A stretch of DNA of 64,000 nucleotides from Shigella phage sb1. The stretch is from the sequence record PQ666539; one strand, 5' to 3'. Every line of letters begins with the position of its first letter. Position 1 is the stretch's first letter. Positions 1-64,000 of the stretch are shown here, one piece after another. The position numbers and the translations under genes were made by a program. The notes under the pieces were generated by a model. The model made no database searches and was not told the DNA's origin. It worked only from the letters and a program-made list of their open reading frames with translations.

Positions 1-15
1 TTTTGAAATAAAAAA

Positions 16-35
16 GGGAGAGCCGAGGCTCTCCC
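16..35 (-). terminator. GC-rich hairpin (UUCG-type loop on minus transcript) followed by U-run; terminator-like / mRNA-stabilising stem-loop
   Basis: Inverted repeat gggagagcc-gaggctctccc flanked by A/T run; seen in sequence. Confidence 0.5.
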
Positions 36-40
36 TAAAA

Positions 41-190
41 TTACTGCATAACTGTGATAACTGTCATGATAACACGTTGAATTCCGAACGCAAGAAGACC
101 TCCTGCTACGGCTGGAACAACACCTAAACCCGCCAGTAAAATGCTACCAGATACTAATGCAGCGCTTGTGATACCTATGAATGGACTCAT
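41..190 (-). CDS. small hydrophobic protein (49 aa)
   Basis: ORF MSPFIGITSAALVSG...; start overlaps gene 52 stop (ATGA); below ORF-track length cutoff. Confidence 0.45.
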   Translation of the reverse strand: MSPFIGITSAALVSGSILLAGLGVVPAVAGGLLAFGIQRVIMTVITVMQ

Positions 191-1515
191 TTGATTTCCT
201 CTAAATCTTTGGTGTATTCTGTAACTACATCAGTAGTTTTCCAATATTCGTTTTCTTCTTTCTTAGCTTTAGCTTCTTCAGCAAGTTTCTTTGCTTCATC
301 GGAAGTCATATGAAAAATATTCATTCCGACTAGTTTATCAACATAAGAAGAATACATATCAATTTTAGAAAGTTCTTCGGTCAGTTCTTTGCGAGTTTTA
401 CCTTGTACAACAATTTCACCTGAAATTACTTTCTTAATGAAATGTGCCTTGGCAAAAGCTAAACGAAATGCTGATTCAGTTTATTTGATTTTGTTATCAA
501 TTCGTTTTTGGACATAAGTTTTACGAACTTCAACGAAGTCTTTGATTAAATCAACTACATTATCGTAAACTTGCAGCTTTCCTTTCTCATTAATAACGGT
601 GATATTCTGGGAACGACGCTCAATCAACCCAAAGTCTTTCATGATTTTTGCGTGGCGTTCTTCTTCGTTATCGCTCAAAGAATATTCTTTGCGGAATTTA
701 ACTTTGAAGCCAAAACCATGCTCACCACAAGCATCATCCCACGTAATGAAGCCTTTATCTTCAAGCGGGTCTAAGATTTTACTCACATAAGTTTCACGAT
801 CATACTTATACGGAATCTCAGTGATATGCATTTGAGTTCGTGAAGTAAACTTGTATGTTCCAAGAATTTCATATTGACCGTCAATTTCAACTACTTCACC
901 ACGAAATTCTGGGAATTCTACCTTAGGTTTAGTTACTTTCTTTCCTTGAAGAGCTTGCAGTACAGCTTTCTTGACAGAAGAAACGCTATGAGGAAGAATG
1001 TAAGTTGCATAACCAGTTGCAATACCGGAAACACCGTTAAGAAGAACAGTAGGAATAATAGGCAAATAGAAAGCAGGCGGAATGTGTTCTTTATCTTGAT
1101 GTACCGGAGAATATTCAGTATATTTATATACATTATAGAAATTTTTACTTACACGAGCAAAAATATAACGACTTGCCGCTGCTTTTTGAACGGTACGAGA
1201 ACCAAAGTTTCCTTGACCATCTAACAAAGGAAAGTTATTATTCCAAGTGTTAGCCATCAAAGCACCTGCGTCTTGTGCAGAGTTTTCACCATGATGATAT
1301 CCATGGTCTGCTACACCACCTGCAATAGAAGCGAGTTTGTGAAACTTATCTTTATTTCATCGTGCCAAATCAAGAGCTCGAGCAATAAAAAATCGTTGAA
1401 CTGGCTTAAATCCATCAATCATATTTGGGATAGAACGATTTTCAACCGTGTACATAGCATAAGCCAATGCTTCATTATCAATGATACTTTTTAAATCGCG
1501 ATTATTCAGTTGCAT
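187..1515 (-). CDS. 52: DNA topoisomerase II medium subunit gp52, interrupted by two in-frame stops
   Basis: Full span 443 codons matches T4 gp52 (442 aa); ORF-track segment 481..1260 plus in-frame N- and C-terminal extensions; in-frame TGA at 1357-1359 and TAA at 481-483. Confidence 0.9.
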
Positions 1516-1652
1516 AAATTTACCATACTAGTGAATGTAGTGCCATAATAACATCAGAAATGAAAAGCACGACTTGAATTAATCCGAACATTACTCCATA
1601 ATATAGTGCTACCAATAAAGTAGCAAGGGCTAATGAATAGCCCAAGATTTTC

Positions 1653-1811
1653 TTAATCATTAGTAGATAACAACACAAATGTTAAATATGCACACATACC
1701 CTGAGATAAAGCTTGTGAAAACACGCTGTTAGAATCGGTGCAGATAGTTAAAACACATGCTACTATCCAACAAATAAATGAAATAATTCCTAATAATTTT
1801 GCGATATTCAT
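1653..1811 (-). CDS. small membrane protein, Ac-like paralog (about 52 aa)
   Basis: ORF track 1653..1841; likely start MNIAKLLGIISFICW...; shares pattern with adjacent Ac-like ORF. Confidence 0.45.
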   Translation of the reverse strand: MNIAKLLGIISFICWIVACVLTICTDSNSVFSQALSQGMCAYLTFVLLSTND

Positions 1812-1821
1812 AATATTCTCC

Positions 1822-1977
1822 TCAACTATTTTTAGAACCAATGTACGCGAATAATGATAAAATCGCTAATACACCCTGAGCTGATGCTTGCAAAAATACT
1901 GAAGTTTCTCCGGTTATTACTGTTCCGATGCATAAAAAGAACCAACAGAAAAAGGCTATACCGTGAACAAATTTCAT
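1822..1977 (-). CDS. ac: Ac-like small membrane protein (51 aa)
   Basis: ORF MKFVHGIAFFCWFFLCIG...; 51 aa as T4 ac; position between 52 and stp. Confidence 0.5.
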   Translation of the reverse strand: MKFVHGIAFFCWFFLCIGTVITGETSVFLQASAQGVLAILSLFAYIGSKNS

Positions 1978-1985
1978 ATTTTCCT

Positions 1986-61717: not shown

Positions 61718-61899
61718 AAGGAATCTATATAATCAATAAGTTCTTGTTCTTTATCGTCTAAATCTTTACACAGTTCTTCATATTCATCGGTATTAAAAGG
61801 ACCGCATTCATCGCAAACTTTTTCCAATTCACTATTTTTATCCATAACTTCGTGAATAAGAGAAAACAGTCTGTCTTTTTGTTCTTTGCTTAGGCTCAC
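61714..61899 (-). CDS. hypothetical protein (tk.2 position)
   Basis: 61-aa ORF. Confidence 0.45.
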   Translation of the reverse strand: MSLSKEQKDRLFSLIHEVMDKNSELEKVCDECGPFNTDEYEELCKDLDDKEQELIDYIDSL

Positions 61900-62068
61900 A
61901 GTATGTCAATCCCCAAAAGTTTTAAAATGACTCGTTTCTGATTCATAACCGCTACGATTGAATGACCGTTGGGGTCTTTTTGACCTGATCCAATTATAAA
62001 TCCTTTTTGTGCGGAAAGTTCAATCAAAACATCAAGTTCACGTAATAATTGATATTTTAAATCATCGT

Positions 62069-62296
62069 TCATTTCGGTTTACCTTCTTTAACGAAATCGG
62101 GATAAGGATAAAATCCTGAATAAAATCCTTCACCTTTATGATTGATGCATCCTTTATTAGAACAATAGCACCAATAATCGAAATCACAAGCCATTTCATC
62201 ATTACATAAAGCAAAAACAACTGGCCATTCACACTTTTCGCAGTGGGCATTTTTAAGAATACTTGTTTGGCTCATAACCATGTAACCTTTAAACAA
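62069..62296 (-). CDS. Cys-rich hypothetical protein
   Basis: 75-aa ORF. Confidence 0.45.
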   Translation of the reverse strand: MFKGYMVMSQTSILKNAHCEKCEWPVVFALCNDEMACDFDYWCYCSNKGCINHKGEGFYSGFYPYPDFVKEGKPK

Positions 62297-62484
62297 TATT
62301 CTTCTACGTGTTGTTTACGACCTTTCCTATCAATAAAGGTATATTCAACGAATGTTCCAATATAGTCTTTATCTACATCATGTGGACTATTAATTGGGCA
62401 TTTAGTACGGCAAATGCGTTCCCATTGACGAATAATTTCCACTTTGTTTTTAGGATCAAACGGATGCGGGTAATGTACTTTCAT
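62272..62484 (-). CDS. hypothetical protein
   Basis: 70-aa ORF. Confidence 0.45.
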   Translation of the reverse strand: MKVHYPHPFDPKNKVEIIRQWERICRTKCPINSPHDVDKDYIGTFVEYTFIDRKGRKQHVEEYCLKVTWL

Positions 62485-62935
62485 AATCCACCACTATTAA
62501 ATCAATATCAGGAGTAAACATGTCGATTAATTTAGAAACCTTATCCCAATCACCACCAGCAATACCGCAACCTATGCGTGGAATGTAAATTACTGGTTTA
62601 AACAAAAGGGTTTCTGCATGTAGATTTAATTCTATCATACAGTTTACTAAAGCACCGTAATCAAGATTAGGGCCCGGTTCGTATTGGGTGTATAAATTAT
62701 AGCACATTTCAAATCCCTTAGGCCTATGTTTAAAAACAATAGACATATCACCTAATTTATCACGAGAGCCGTATTCGGTAGTAGTCTTATCAATTTCTAA
62801 AATTTTAGGATAGGCCCTTGCTAATTGACCCGCCACGCATGAACCCATAGTATGAAAACAGTTGCACCCATGTGCAATAATATTACCTTGGAGAAACAGG
62901 GCGACGATATCGCCCTTAATATATTTTACAATCAT
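62456..62935 (-). CDS. macro-domain-like protein (ADP-ribose binding/processing fold)
   Basis: 159-aa ORF with GDIVALF...NIIAHGCNCFHTMGSCVAG and PRIGCGIAGG motifs resembling MacroD/YmdB. Confidence 0.5.
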   Translation of the reverse strand: MIVKYIKGDIVALFLQGNIIAHGCNCFHTMGSCVAGQLARAYPKILEIDKTTTEYGSRDKLGDMSIVFKHRPKGFEMCYNLYTQYEPGPNLDYGALVNCMIELNLHAETLLFKPVIYIPRIGCGIAGGDWDKVSKLIDMFTPDIDLIVVDYESTLPASV

Positions 62936-63279
62936 CTAGTACTCAATCCTCGATTATAAGAATCTACTAAACGGTCAACCATTGAATGACAAGCGGCTTT
63001 ATCTTTCTCCTCCGCAACTGAACATTCTAAGGTATTCCACTTTTTAGCATATCGTTTTAACAATGTATCATTTTTGTATCTGCTTGATTTATCTCTTTCT
63101 CCGTCTTTATATGCATATATTAATTTCTGCGCAAATTCAGCTTGGCATGCTTTATTTTTCCCACAATAATCCGCGGCAGTACGGTTTACATACTCTCTAA
63201 TTTCAGTATATGATGTATCTGCTAACGCAGAAGCAGAAAATGAAATTAATCATATACATAAAACCAAAATTTTAGTCAT
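62932..63279 (-). CDS. hypothetical 115-aa protein at the vs position, with in-frame TGA near the N-terminus
   Basis: MTKILVLCI, stop, LISFSASALA...; 116 codons equals T4 Vs length, but the N-terminus looks signal-peptide-like. Confidence 0.35.
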
Positions 63280-63817
63280 TTACTATTTCCAAAAGTTTAT
63301 TATTTTTAAGGTAATTAGCCTTTTCTAGGACTTCAGAAGCATATTTAGAACCTTCTTTAACATTCCATCCCGAATTATAAGAGGATATCGCCTTTCTTAT
63401 ATCTCCCTTATGTATATTTAACCAATAAGAAAGTTCAATGTACGCCCAGGAAGCTGAATTGGACCGTTTATTCAACATTCTTTTTATTTCAGCATCGGTC
63501 ATATTATAACCAAGTTCCTTAACTCTTGCTCGCATAGTAGGCAAATAATTTTGGAACATTCCGTAGGCATGATGCTTTGGTTTAGATTTTAAATTAACTC
63601 CGGCAGAGCTTTCTTGCCACAAAATAGCAGCCATTATATGACCTAATCCGCTCTTATGGATGTTTTTGTGTGTTTTATATTTTCCATCCTTAGAAAATTG
63701 TTCCCCGAATTGATATGCGTAACGCATGTTATCGAGTTGGACATTACTGAAAGTATGCTCGGAGCTATGCGCCATCATAGAAATGGCCAATAGACCAGCG
63801 AGTAGTGCTTTTCTCAT
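63272..63817 (-). CDS. secreted lytic transglycosylase (SLT)-like protein, vs.1-like
   Basis: 181-aa ORF with signal peptide and ESSAG motif typical of the SLT catalytic region. Confidence 0.6.
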   Translation of the reverse strand: MRKALLAGLLAISMMAHSSEHTFSNVQLDNMRYAYQFGEQFSKDGKYKTHKNIHKSGLGHIMAAILWQESSAGVNLKSKPKHHAYGMFQNYLPTMRARVKELGYNMTDAEIKRMLNKRSNSASWAYIELSYWLNIHKGDIRKAISSYNSGWNVKEGSKYASEVLEKANYLKNNKLLEIVND

Positions 63818-63820
63818 GCT

Positions 63821-64000
63821 TACCTCATTGAGTTTTAATTACTGCTTTAGAAGCCTTTCCTGGTAAACGACGACTGTTAATAATTGCCATCCTACATTGA
63901 AGTGACGGGTCTTTGAACTTCGCATTAGGTTTACAAACCGTAAATCCAAGCCAAAGATTTCCATCTGTGATTTCTAAACGTCCAGGACGGTATTCAACCC
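63821..64000 (-). CDS. regB: endoribonuclease RegB, C-terminal part (gene runs off the window)
   Basis: Translation ends ...RMAIINSRRLPGKASKAVIKTQ; position after vs.1 as in T4. Confidence 0.55.

What the first reader, a model, noticed from the sequence alone, without database searches (positions are those of the whole stretch)
1..64000. At least 20 conserved genes carry in-frame stops or 1-nt frameshifts while keeping T4-exact total lengths
Genes 52, stp, denB, rIIA, dda, modB, soc, 41, 42, imm, 43, rpbA, 46, nrdG, nrdD and others each split into collinear same-frame ORFs separated by a single TAA/TGA/TAG (or a 1-nt deletion), and the summed spans equal the T4 protein lengths. Essential replication genes are hit, all three stop codons occur, and lesions are roughly one per 2-3 kb. 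This does not look like natural pseudogenisation or a recoded genetic code; sequencing/basecalling error (possibly from hydroxymethyl-glucosyl cytosine), a mutagenised stock or artificial perturbation fit better.
Basis: partly seen in the sequence, partly recalled or inferred. Interest (0 to 1): 0.7.

Follow-up and report, generated by a model that had tools for sequence, protein, structure and literature searches.

The report
Sequencing-artefact stop codons in T4-like phage
The broken genes are real in this sequence, but they come from about 250 random G:C-to-T:A base errors that selection never saw, so they are almost certainly a laboratory or assembly artefact in a T4-like Shigella phage genome and not biology.

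Summary
The window is the first 64 kb of a Tequatrovirus. It is collinear from base 1 with Shigella phages pSs-1, sb2, sb3 and sb4 at 96-97% identity. I projected 128 pSs-1 genes onto it. This gave 31 premature stops, 2 single-C frameshifts, 2 lost start codons and 1 lost stop, spread over 27 genes. These include the essential genes 41, 42, 43, 46 and 52.

29 of the 31 stops are G->T or C->A changes; none is a transition. Among the window's 781 private substitutions, 271 are C:G->A:T. The clean relatives pSs-1 and Sfk20 have 10 and 14. That class fits a neutral expectation (10% nonsense, 75% missense, 15% synonymous). It is strand-symmetric, nearly context-free and close to evenly spread, and it does not spare essential genes. 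Private transitions are about 73% synonymous with no nonsense changes.

Sibling GenBank records sb2 and sb4, from the same study (NovaSeq, SKESA), show the same signature and share some error sites. The study's fourth genome, ADG1 (PQ666539), is missing from the searched collection and is probably the source.

Verdict: artefact, not recoding, pseudogenisation or a viable mutant. The exact laboratory cause is unresolved; 8-oxoguanine-type damage is the leading candidate.

The parts
1..64000 (-). Early-gene region of a Tequatrovirus (pSs-1-like): gene 52 ... rIIB/rIIA, 39, dexA, dda, modA/B, soc, 56, 61, 41, 40, uvsX, ba-gt, 42, imm, 43, regA, 62, 44, 45, rpbA, 46, 47, a-gt, 55, nrdH/G/D, 49, nrdC, tk, vs. 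It carries about 250 excess G:C->T:A substitutions (1.25% of G:C pairs).
1357..1359 (-). gene 52 codon 53 GGA->TGA
481..483 (-). gene 52 codon 345 GAA->TAA
4137..4139 (-). denB codon 51 GAG/GAA->TAA
7998..8000 (-). rIIA codon 8 GAA->TAA
7185..7187 (-). rIIA codon 279 GAA->TAA
7176..7178 (-). rIIA codon 282 TCA->TAA
10918..10920 (-). FmdB-like small gene codon 25 GAA->TAA
11355..11357 (-). hypothetical gene (pSs1_0021) codon 20 GAA->TAA
14653..14655 (-). pSs1_0029 homologue codon 80 of 86 GAA->TAA
15095..15098 (-). dda: private deletion of one C from a CC pair (ACTCCA -> ACT-CA on the + strand), a -1 frameshift
18498..18500 (-). modB codon 38 TCA->TAA
18099..18101 (-). modB codon 171 GAA->TAA
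19575..19577 (-). srh-like gene codon 35 TCA->TAA
20902..20904 (-). soc codon 50 AAA->TAA (A->T)
23059..23061 (-). pSs1_0046 homologue codon 6 GAA->TAA
22936..22938 (-). pSs1_0046 homologue codon 47 GAG->TAG
23074..23076 (-). pSs1_0046 homologue start codon ATG->ATT
23348..23350 (-). pSs1_0047 homologue codon 29 GAA->TAA
25375..25377 (-). gene 41 helicase codon 118 GAG->TAG
28407..28409 (-). gene 42 dCMP hydroxymethylase codon 169 TCA->TAA
29067..29070 (-). One C->A at 29068 converts the imm stop TGA->TTA and the overlapping start of the next gene ATG->ATT
29295..29297 (-). imm codon 8 TCA->TAA (also present in sb4)
29214..29216 (-). imm codon 35 TCA->TAA (also present in sb2 and sb4)
31079..31081 (-). 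gene 43 DNA polymerase codon 502 AAA->TAA (A->T)
30026..30028 (-). gene 43 DNA polymerase codon 853 GAA->TAA
35667..35669 (-). rpbA codon 24 TCA->TAA
36676..36678 (-). gene 46 codon 333 TAC->TAA
43924..43926 (-). nrdH codon 101 of 102 GAA->TAA
44917..44919 (-). nrdG codon 37 TCA->TAA
45399..45401 (-). nrdD codon 481 GAA->TAA
53188..53190 (-). pSs1_00102 homologue codon 133 GAA->TAA
53753..53755 (-). pSs1_00103 homologue codon 81 GAA->TAA
54294..54296 (-). pSs1_00104 homologue codon 95 GAA->TAA
55822..55825 (-). pSs1_00106 homologue: private deletion of one C from a CC pair (ACACCA -> ACA-CA on the + strand), a -1 frameshift
63250..63252 (-). vs codon 10 GGA->TGA

Best explanation
The window is a genuine T4-like (Tequatrovirus, pSs-1 cluster) phage genome. 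Its deposited consensus carries about 250-300 base errors that selection never saw. Almost all are G:C->T:A transversions affecting about 1.25% of G:C pairs, plus two single-C deletions. A stop appears wherever such an error hits the first G of GAA, GAG or GGA, the C of TCA, or the last C of TAC. Starts and stops are lost the same way (ATG->ATT, TGA->TTA). The phage that was actually propagated almost certainly has intact genes. The errors were introduced in vitro or in silico, during DNA preparation, library construction, sequencing or assembly. This step is inferred, not shown. The most likely chemistry is guanine damage of the 8-oxoG type, which pairs with A during library PCR. For such errors to reach the consensus, effective library complexity or depth must have been low, which is plausible for glucosyl-hmC DNA. 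The source is probably Shigella phage ADG1 (PQ666539), from the same study as sb2, sb3 and sb4.
For: Spectrum: 29 of 31 premature stops are G->T or C->A on the coding strand, 2 are A->T, and none is a transition. In a 6-genome alignment (62,717 shared columns), the window has 781 private substitutions, of which 271 are C:G->A:T. The counts for clean relatives are 10/266 (pSs-1), 14/268 (Sfk20) and 22/407 (sb3). Lack of selection: the private C>A class is 26 nonsense, 185 missense and 37 synonymous. The neutral expectation is 12.1%, 78.9% and 9.0%. Subtracting about 24 natural C>A changes gives about 29 expected nonsense changes, against 26 observed. Private transitions are 281 synonymous, 105 missense and 0 nonsense. 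Randomness: the rate is 1.32% of + strand C and 1.16% of + strand G. The -5..+5 context is nearly flat. The dispersion index is 1.26 per kb. Coding and noncoding rates are 1.27% and 0.95%. Essential and non-essential genes show 1.14% and 1.31% (p = 0.33). Gene 43 close-up: against phage Killian, all 25 transitions are synonymous. All 4 amino-acid-changing differences (L273F, K502*, A777S, E853*) are G->T or A->T. G+C is lowest in the window: 34.21% against 34.53-34.66%. Same process in sibling deposits: sb2 has 45 private C>A (5 nonsense). sb4 has 146 private C>A (15 nonsense) plus 192 T>A (12 nonsense), and its annotation splits gp52, rIIA, modA/B, 43, 44, 47, nrdD and 49. The window and sb4 share 18 C>A sites (about 2.4 expected by chance), and 14 of the 18 are missense or nonsense. 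Source study (PMC11993411): four Kolkata lake-water phages, CTAB DNA, Twist enzymatic library from 50 ng with PCR, NovaSeq 6000, SKESA and Prokka. ADG1 has the lowest G+C (35.16%) and 285 CDS, against 254-255 for AKR2 and CDR3. The rank order ADG1 < TMC4 < AKR2 ~ CDR3 matches window < sb4 < sb2 ~ sb3. PQ666539 is absent from the collection. Literature: C>A/G>T, hottest at CCG, is the known signature of 8-oxoG damage during library preparation (PMC3616734). Here CCG has the highest rate (2.2%, p = 0.045). T4 glucosyl-hmC DNA is under-quantified by Qubit and under-represented in libraries (PMC11515303). Population check: all nine public viral-contig matches across two tested lesion sites carry the sense codon.
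Against: Oxidation artefacts are normally seen at low allele fraction, and NovaSeq depth is usually very large. Getting 1.25% of G:C pairs wrong in a de novo consensus therefore requires an extreme loss of library complexity or depth that I cannot document. Neighbouring errors show no strand coherence (52% same orientation, as expected by chance). Strong coherence would be expected if each region came from a single damaged strand. The recurrence of the same error sites in the window, sb4 and sb2 points to a systematic, site-dependent component or to cross-talk between libraries, not purely random damage. The library used enzymatic shearing, not the acoustic shearing studied by Costello et al. 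The identification of the source as PQ666539 is indirect: exact look-ups of eight window proteins found nothing, and the paper's supplements are not held.
Confidence: 0.9

Rival explanations
1. Instrument artefact instead of DNA damage. On two-colour Illumina chemistry (NovaSeq: A = red+green, C = red, T = green, G = dark; from my own knowledge), a spurious green signal turns C into A and G into T. That is exactly this folded mutation class. With thin coverage, such miscalls could enter the SKESA contigs.
For: The study used a NovaSeq 6000. The excess is confined to C>A and G>T, with almost no reverse A>C or T>G (16 and 13). It is strand-symmetric and shows no orientation coherence between neighbours, as expected for read-level miscalls drawn from both strands.
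Against: Random read errors should not survive a k-mer assembler at normal NovaSeq depth. There is no enrichment of T or A at the neighbouring positions, as phasing bleed-through would predict. The extra T:A->A:T class in sb4 would need spurious red signal, which should also give G->C, but C>G is not elevated there (7).
Confidence: 0.2
2. Long-read (nanopore-type) basecalling errors caused by glucosyl-hydroxymethylcytosine.
For: The errors occur only at G:C pairs. The window encodes gene 42, a-gt and a beta-glucosyl-HMC-alpha-glucosyltransferase, so every C in the virion DNA should be hypermodified.
Against: The probable source study used Illumina only. Only 2 private coding indels accompany about 250 substitutions, whereas nanopore consensus errors are rich in indels. 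The context is nearly flat over -5..+5, whereas modification-induced miscalls are specific to particular k-mers. sb3, from the same study and with the same DNA modification, is clean.
Confidence: 0.03
3. The lesions are real. The sequenced DNA came from a heavily G:C->T:A-mutagenised, defective phage lineage (for example after oxidative damage), maintained by complementation or present as a clonal dead end.
For: The spectrum is that of 8-oxoG mutagenesis, which can also occur in vivo (from my own knowledge: mutM/mutY-type G:C->T:A changes).
Against: A genome with stops in genes 41, 42, 43 (two), 46 and 52, plus 185 random missense changes in 64 kb, cannot form plaques, yet the phages were isolated and propagated. 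The nonsense, missense and synonymous proportions are neutral and essential genes are not spared. A mixed mutagenised population would average out in a consensus. Independent isolates sb2 and sb4 carry the same process at mostly different sites and a few identical sites.
Confidence: 0.03
4. The window was perturbed artificially (in silico substitutions) after retrieval from a clean genome.
For: The errors look statistically random and unselected. No exact protein from the window is in the protein collection.
Against: A synthetic mutator would hardly be restricted to G:C->T:A with two C deletions. Public records sb2 and sb4 show the same signature, and 18+ erroneous sites are shared with the window. 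The published statistics for ADG1 (lowest G+C, 30 extra CDS) already imply the defect in the deposited genome.
Confidence: 0.03
5. Stop-codon reassignment or suppression, or natural pseudogenisation of dispensable genes.
For: 27 of the 31 premature stops are TAA. A few lesions lie in dispensable genes (imm, soc, rIIA, denB) or at the extreme C-terminus (nrdH 101/102, gp30 80/86).
Against: All three stop codons occur. The stops replace five different amino acids (18 E, 8 S, 2 G, 2 K, 1 Y). TAA, TGA and TAG still terminate 70, 48 and 9 genes in the window. There is no tRNA in the window. Essential replication genes are hit. The same mutational class also yields 185 missense changes in neutral proportion. 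Every relative examined has sense codons at the sites outside imm; two imm stops recur in sb2 and sb4, the error-affected siblings.
Confidence: 0.005

Closest known systems
Shigella phages sb2 (PQ666540, AKR2) and sb4 (PQ666542, TMC4), with sb3 (PQ666541) and pSs-1 (NC_025829) as clean comparators
   Same: They have the same genome origin, gene order and gene lengths, and are 96-97% identical. sb2 and sb4 carry the same kind of unselected C:G->A:T excess, with nonsense mutations in conserved genes and fragmented Prokka annotation. Some erroneous sites are identical to those in the window.
   Different: The window has the highest C>A load (271 private, against 146 and 45). sb4 has an additional T:A->A:T class (192) that is weak in the window (49). 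sb3 and pSs-1 have no private nonsense changes. The window's natural backbone differs from each relative by about 2.7%, so it is a distinct isolate.
8-oxoguanine oxidation artefact of Illumina library preparation (Costello et al. 2013, PMC3616734)
   Same: The signature is exclusively C>A/G>T. CCG is the hottest trinucleotide. The effect depends on the sample within a single study.
   Different: The published artefact appears at low allele fraction after acoustic shearing. Here the changes sit in the consensus of an enzymatically fragmented library, the context preference is weak, and read-orientation bias cannot be examined.
Bacteriophage T4 early region (T4T HM137666)
   Same: Gene content and gene lengths match. 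For example, gene 43 is 2,697 nt without gaps at 96.3% identity.
   Different: This phage is of the pSs-1/T2-T6 type. Gene 39 is a single 605-codon ORF, nrdD is uninterrupted, and an a-gt plus ba-gt glucosyltransferase pair is annotated. T4's split 39/60 and beta-gt are recalled from my own knowledge. T4T has none of the stops.

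Membership tests
Tequatrovirus (T4-like) early-gene region | Collinear gene order and high nucleotide identity to reference Tequatrovirus genomes | tested here: met
   A single 64-kb alignment to pSs-1 at 96.26% identity. 227-487 phage records cover at least 80% of each 25-kb piece of the window.
Stop-codon reassignment / recoded phage | One stop codon occurs in-frame and consistently aligns with one amino acid in relatives | tested here: not met
   All three stop codons occur, and they align with E, S, G, K and Y.
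Stop-codon reassignment / recoded phage | The reassigned codon is avoided as a terminator, and a cognate suppressor tRNA is present | tested here: not met
   TAA ends 70 genes, TGA 48 and TAG 9. No tRNA was found in the window. The T4-type tRNA cluster lies outside the window and was not examined.
Natural pseudogenisation | Lesions concentrate in dispensable genes and essential genes are spared | tested here: not met
   The C>A rate is 1.14% in essential genes and 1.31% in the others (p = 0.33). Stops occur in genes 41, 42, 43, 46 and 52.
Natural pseudogenisation | The mutational spectrum resembles the lineage's natural divergence | tested here: not met
   Natural private changes in the relatives are about 85-90% transitions. 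The lesions are 29/31 G:C->T:A and 0 transitions.
8-oxoG-type library-preparation artefact | Excess restricted to C>A/G>T | tested here: met
   271 of 781 private changes, against 4-5% in clean relatives.
8-oxoG-type library-preparation artefact | Preference for the CCG (GGC) context | tested here: inconclusive
   CCG has the highest rate: 14 of 632 sites, or 2.2%, against 1.25% overall (p = 0.045). The overall trinucleotide heterogeneity is weak (chi-square p = 0.03).
8-oxoG-type library-preparation artefact | Read-orientation bias (G>T on read 1, C>A on read 2) and low allele fraction | not testable with these tools
   This needs the raw reads. Only the consensus sequence is available.
Programmed frameshift / translational bypass (for the dda and gp107 -1 sites) | A frameshift site conserved among relatives, with a slippery sequence | tested here: not met
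   Both are private deletions of one C from a CC pair. All six relatives have the in-frame sequence.
Record PQ666539 (Shigella phage ADG1 / 'sb1') | Sequence identity to that record | not testable with these tools
   The accession is absent from the collection, the supplements are not held, and exact protein look-ups were negative. The support is indirect: the same origin as sb2-4, the shared error signature and shared error sites, and matching rank orders of G+C and CDS inflation.

The most novel reading that the evidence does not exclude
The G:C->T:A consensus errors could be a reproducible failure mode specific to glucosyl-hmC (T-even) DNA in enzymatic-fragmentation, PCR and two-colour Illumina workflows. 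Poor fragmentation, ligation or amplification of hypermodified DNA would collapse library complexity, so that template damage becomes fixed in the consensus at recurrent sites. If so, the same errors may be silently contaminating other public T-even genomes and their protein entries. The more radical reading, that the stops are real and tolerated, is essentially excluded.
Probability: 0.15. Interest if true: 0.3.

Novelty: not a real feature. Interest (0 to 1): 0.08.

Why it matters
The biological significance is nil. There is no recoding, no suppression and no unusual pseudogenisation, and the phage most likely encodes normal T4-type replication proteins. The practical value is in data quality. 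At least three deposits from one study (this window, probably PQ666539, plus PQ666540 and PQ666542) carry hundreds of unselected errors. Their fragmented ORFs (for example rIIA_1/2, nrdD_1-3 and the split DNA polymerase) enter protein databases, pangenome analyses and gene counts. The published figures of 285 and 291 proteins for ADG1 and TMC4, against 254-255 for their siblings, probably reflect this fragmentation. The spectrum test used here is a quick and general way to separate artefact from biology when a genome shows many broken genes. It classifies private substitutions by type and coding effect and compares them with clean relatives.

Tried and rejected
1. I tried to retrieve PQ666539 directly. 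It is not in any collection, and the paper's supplementary genomes are not held. Exact look-ups of eight window ORFs, both intact and truncated, returned nothing. The source assignment therefore stays indirect.
2. I tested the single-damaged-strand bottleneck idea. Adjacent C>A/G>T errors within 50-1500 nt have the same orientation 50-53% of the time, exactly as expected by chance. There is no support for one damaged strand per region.
3. I tested phasing or neighbour bleed-through. There is no A/T enrichment at -1 or +1.
4. I considered depurination followed by insertion of A opposite the abasic site (giving G->T and A->T). This fits sb4, where the per-site rates at G:C and A:T are about 1.4:1. 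It does not fit the window, where the ratio is about 13:1. It was rejected as the main cause for the window.
5. The apparent gp111 frameshift turned out to be a natural 6-nt indel.
7. Recoding, suppression and natural pseudogenisation were rejected.
8. The scan of public viral contigs gave only 5 and 4 matching contigs, all with sense codons. This is consistent but a small sample.

Full report
WHAT THE WINDOW IS. Megablast of the three parts of the window against 50,697 phage records finds hundreds of Tequatrovirus genomes. The best matches are Shigella and Escherichia phages sb3, sb2, pSs-1, Ec_YwIITB1, sb4 and Sfk20, at only 96-97% identity. The window starts at the same base as pSs-1 and sb2-4. 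It aligns to pSs-1 positions 1-63,993 in a single block: 96.26% identity, 2,356 mismatches and 25 gap openings. All genes lie on the minus strand in the T4 early-region order, from gene 52 through rIIB/rIIA, 39, dda, modA/B, soc, 61, 41, uvsX, 42, imm, 43, 62/44/45, 46/47, a-gt, 55, nrdH/G/D, 49 and tk to vs.

CHECK OF THE OBSERVATION. I projected the 128 annotated pSs-1 CDS (about 20,100 codons) onto the window. This gives 31 in-frame premature stops (27 TAA, 2 TAG, 2 TGA), two -1 frameshifts (dda and the pSs1_00106 homologue), two lost start codons and one lost stop. A single C->A at 29068 destroys both the imm stop and the start of the overlapping next gene. That makes 36 lesions from 35 mutational events in 27 genes, or one per 1.8 kb. 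Lengths are otherwise unchanged. Gene 43 is 2,697 nt without gaps, exactly as in T4T and about 500 other records. An apparent frameshift in gp111 is a natural 6-nt indel shared with sb2, sb3 and Sfk20. Both real frameshifts are private deletions of one C from a CC pair.

THE DIAGNOSTIC: A SINGLE MUTATIONAL CLASS. The replaced codons are GAA (15), TCA (8), GAG (3), GGA (2), AAA (2) and TAC (1). So 29 of the 31 stops are G->T or C->A on the coding strand and 2 are A->T. None is a transition, although CAA->TAA, CAG->TAG and TGG->TAG/TGA would be common under a natural, transition-rich spectrum. The lost starts (ATG->ATT) and the lost stop (TGA->TTA) belong to the same class.

POLARISING THE CHANGES. 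I built a window-anchored alignment with pSs-1, sb3, sb2, sb4 and Sfk20 (62,717 shared columns). I then counted substitutions private to each genome. The window has 781, of which 271 are C:G->A:T (35%). The corresponding counts are 10/266 for pSs-1, 14/268 for Sfk20, 22/407 for sb3, 45/249 for sb2 and 146/683 for sb4. sb4 also has 192 T:A->A:T changes. In the window, the private C>A class splits into 26 nonsense, 185 missense and 37 synonymous changes. Private transitions split into 281 synonymous, 105 missense and 0 nonsense. Of all possible C>A/G>T changes in these CDS, 12.1% would be nonsense, 78.9% missense and 9.0% synonymous. Clean relatives have a C>A-to-transition ratio of about 6%, which implies about 24 natural C>A changes in the window. 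The remaining ~236 coding errors predict about 29 stops, and 26 private ones are observed. The number of broken genes is therefore what an unselected G:C->T:A process at this dose should produce.

PROPERTIES OF THE PROCESS. It affects 1.25% of G:C pairs and is strand-symmetric (1.32% of + strand C, 1.16% of + strand G). Its context is nearly flat from -5 to +5. There is a slight GpC preference, and CCG is the hottest trinucleotide at 2.2% (p = 0.045; heterogeneity across all 16 trinucleotides p = 0.03). The errors are spread almost as a Poisson process along the window (dispersion 1.26 per kb, against 2.6 for natural transitions). Coding and noncoding DNA are hit at 1.27% and 0.95%. Essential and non-essential genes are hit at 1.14% and 1.31% (p = 0.33). 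Neighbouring errors show no strand coherence. G+C on shared columns is lowest in the window, at 34.21% against 34.53-34.66%. In gene 43, compared with its closest relative (phage Killian, 98.8% identical), all 25 transitions are synonymous. The only four amino-acid-changing differences (L273F, K502*, A777S, E853*) are G->T or A->T. In public viral contigs, the two lesion sites I tested (gp43 K502, gp41 E118) carry sense codons in all nine matching contigs.

WHERE IT COMES FROM. sb2, sb3 and sb4 are GenBank PQ666540-42. Their annotations already show fragmentation. In sb2 the DNA polymerase is split and genes 52, 41 and 46 are truncated. In sb4, genes 52, rIIA, modA, modB, 43, 44, 47, nrdD and 49 are all annotated in pieces. 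On the same columns, sb2 has 6 private nonsense changes and sb4 has 32, while pSs-1, Sfk20 and sb3 have none. The window and sb4 share 18 C>A sites where about 2.4 are expected by chance. Fourteen of these are missense or nonsense, half are in a GpC context, and two imm stops are shared with sb4 or with both sb2 and sb4. So part of the process recurs at the same sites, or the libraries cross-contaminated each other.

The describing paper (Kayet et al., Bioinformation 2024, PMC11993411) reports four phages from Kolkata lake water: ADG1 (PQ666539), AKR2 (PQ666540), CRD3 (PQ666541) and TMC4 (PQ666542). DNA was extracted with CTAB. Libraries were made with the Twist enzymatic-fragmentation kit from 50 ng with HiFi PCR, and sequenced on a NovaSeq 6000. 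Assembly was de novo with SKESA and annotation with Prokka. ADG1 is 164,945 bp with the lowest G+C (35.16%) and 285 proteins. TMC4 has 35.35% and 291 proteins. AKR2 and CDR3 have about 35.5% and 254-255 proteins. This rank order matches window < sb4 < sb2 ~ sb3 for both G+C and nonsense load. PQ666539 is the only one of the four accessions missing from the searched collection. I therefore infer, at about 0.8 probability, that the window is the first 64 kb of ADG1. I could not verify this directly.

MECHANISM. What is shown: the lesions are one manifestation of an unselected, G:C->T:A-specific, near-random substitution process that is specific to certain deposits from one study. What is inferred: the process acted after the phage stopped replicating, that is in vitro or in silico. 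A genome with stops in genes 41, 42, 43, 46 and 52, plus about 185 random missense changes in 64 kb, cannot form plaques, and a mixed population would average out in a consensus. The best-known cause of pure C>A/G>T artefacts is 8-oxoguanine formed during DNA extraction or library preparation. It pairs with A in PCR and is hottest at CCG (Costello et al. 2013, PMC3616734). The weak CCG maximum here is compatible with that.

The difficulty is that such artefacts normally stay at low allele fraction. Reaching the consensus requires very low unique-molecule depth. That is conceivable, because glucosyl-hmC T4 DNA is under-quantified by Qubit and under-represented in standard libraries (PMC11515303). 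The window encodes gene 42, a-gt and ba-gt. Still, low depth is not demonstrated.

An alternative artefact is a spurious green-channel signal on two-colour chemistry, which would convert C->A and G->T (chemistry from my own knowledge). It fits the one-directional spectrum and the lack of strand coherence, but it also needs low depth. The second error class in sb4 (A:T->T:A at a per-site rate close to that of G:C->T:A) looks more like abasic-site bypass with insertion of A, so the damage types may differ between samples. I put 0.9 on 'artefact', and within that roughly 0.4 on 8-oxoG-type damage, 0.2 on an instrument cause, and the rest unresolved.

RIVALS REJECTED.
- Recoding or suppression. 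All three stop codons occur and replace five different amino acids. TAA, TGA and TAG still terminate 70, 48 and 9 genes. There is no tRNA in the window.
- Natural pseudogenisation. The spectrum is wrong, essential genes are not spared, and the proportions are neutral.
- Nanopore miscalls at modified C. The data are Illumina, there are hardly any indels, the context is flat, and sb3 is clean despite the same DNA chemistry.
- Synthetic perturbation of the window. The same signature and shared error sites occur in the public sibling records, and the published ADG1 statistics already imply the defect.

VERDICT. This is not a real biological feature. Interest is low and lies in data curation.

Noticed in passing
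Public records PQ666540 (sb2; loci L005/L006) and PQ666542 (sb4; loci L007/L008): Both GenBank genomes carry the same kind of unselected errors. sb2 has 45 private C>A changes (5 nonsense). sb4 has 146 C>A and 192 T:A->A:T changes, with 32 private nonsense changes in total. Prokka has split gp52, rIIA, modA/B, gp43, gp44, gp47, nrdD and endo VII into numbered fragments that are now database proteins. sb3 from the same study is clean.
   Followed up: yes
window 1110, 1122, 5796, 8663, 9569, 13005, 13689, 24835, 27681, 29215, 29263, 29296, 32480, 35396, 36273, 36631, 40689, 60717, 60761, 60890 and others: C>A/G>T errors recur at identical positions in the window and sb4, and some in sb2 as well (18 shared with sb4 alone, against about 2.4 expected). 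Most are missense, and half lie in a GpC context. This suggests error hot spots or read cross-talk between libraries run together. The cause is unexplained.
   Followed up: partly
window 56000-56100, 29700-29790, 3732-3817, 11735-11792, 54593-54615: A repeated ~90-nt intergenic cassette (72-80% identity for the three longer copies; the fifth match is a 23-nt exact core). On the transcribed strand it reads AAAAATTTTTTCACAAAAC..GTTTACA..(17 nt)..TACTATAC..leader..GGAGAAT.AAATG. It looks like the T4 early-promoter, 5' leader and Shine-Dalgarno module repeated upstream of several early genes.
   Followed up: partly
window 8290-10107; 27334-28176; 39314-40516; 45024-46841: The backbone is of the pSs-1/T2-T6 type, not T4 proper. 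Gene 39 is a single 605-codon ORF with no separate gene 60. nrdD is an uninterrupted 605 codons. The glucosyltransferase pair is annotated in pSs-1 as alpha-gt plus beta-glucosyl-HMC-alpha-glucosyltransferase, which implies T2/T6-style hmC glucosylation.
   Followed up: no
window-wide (private substitutions other than C>A): There are smaller excesses of mostly non-synonymous T>G (29; 21 missense), C>G (16; 11 missense) and T>A (49; includes the two AAA->TAA stops in soc and gene 43), compared with 2-18 in clean relatives. The error process is therefore not purely G:C->T:A.
   Followed up: partly
Paper PMC11993411, results section: The paper's abstract places the four phages in Tequatrovirus, but its results text says 'Tunavirus'. 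The reported protein counts (285 and 291 against 254-255) are presented as biological findings, but they probably reflect gene fragmentation by sequence errors.
   Followed up: partly
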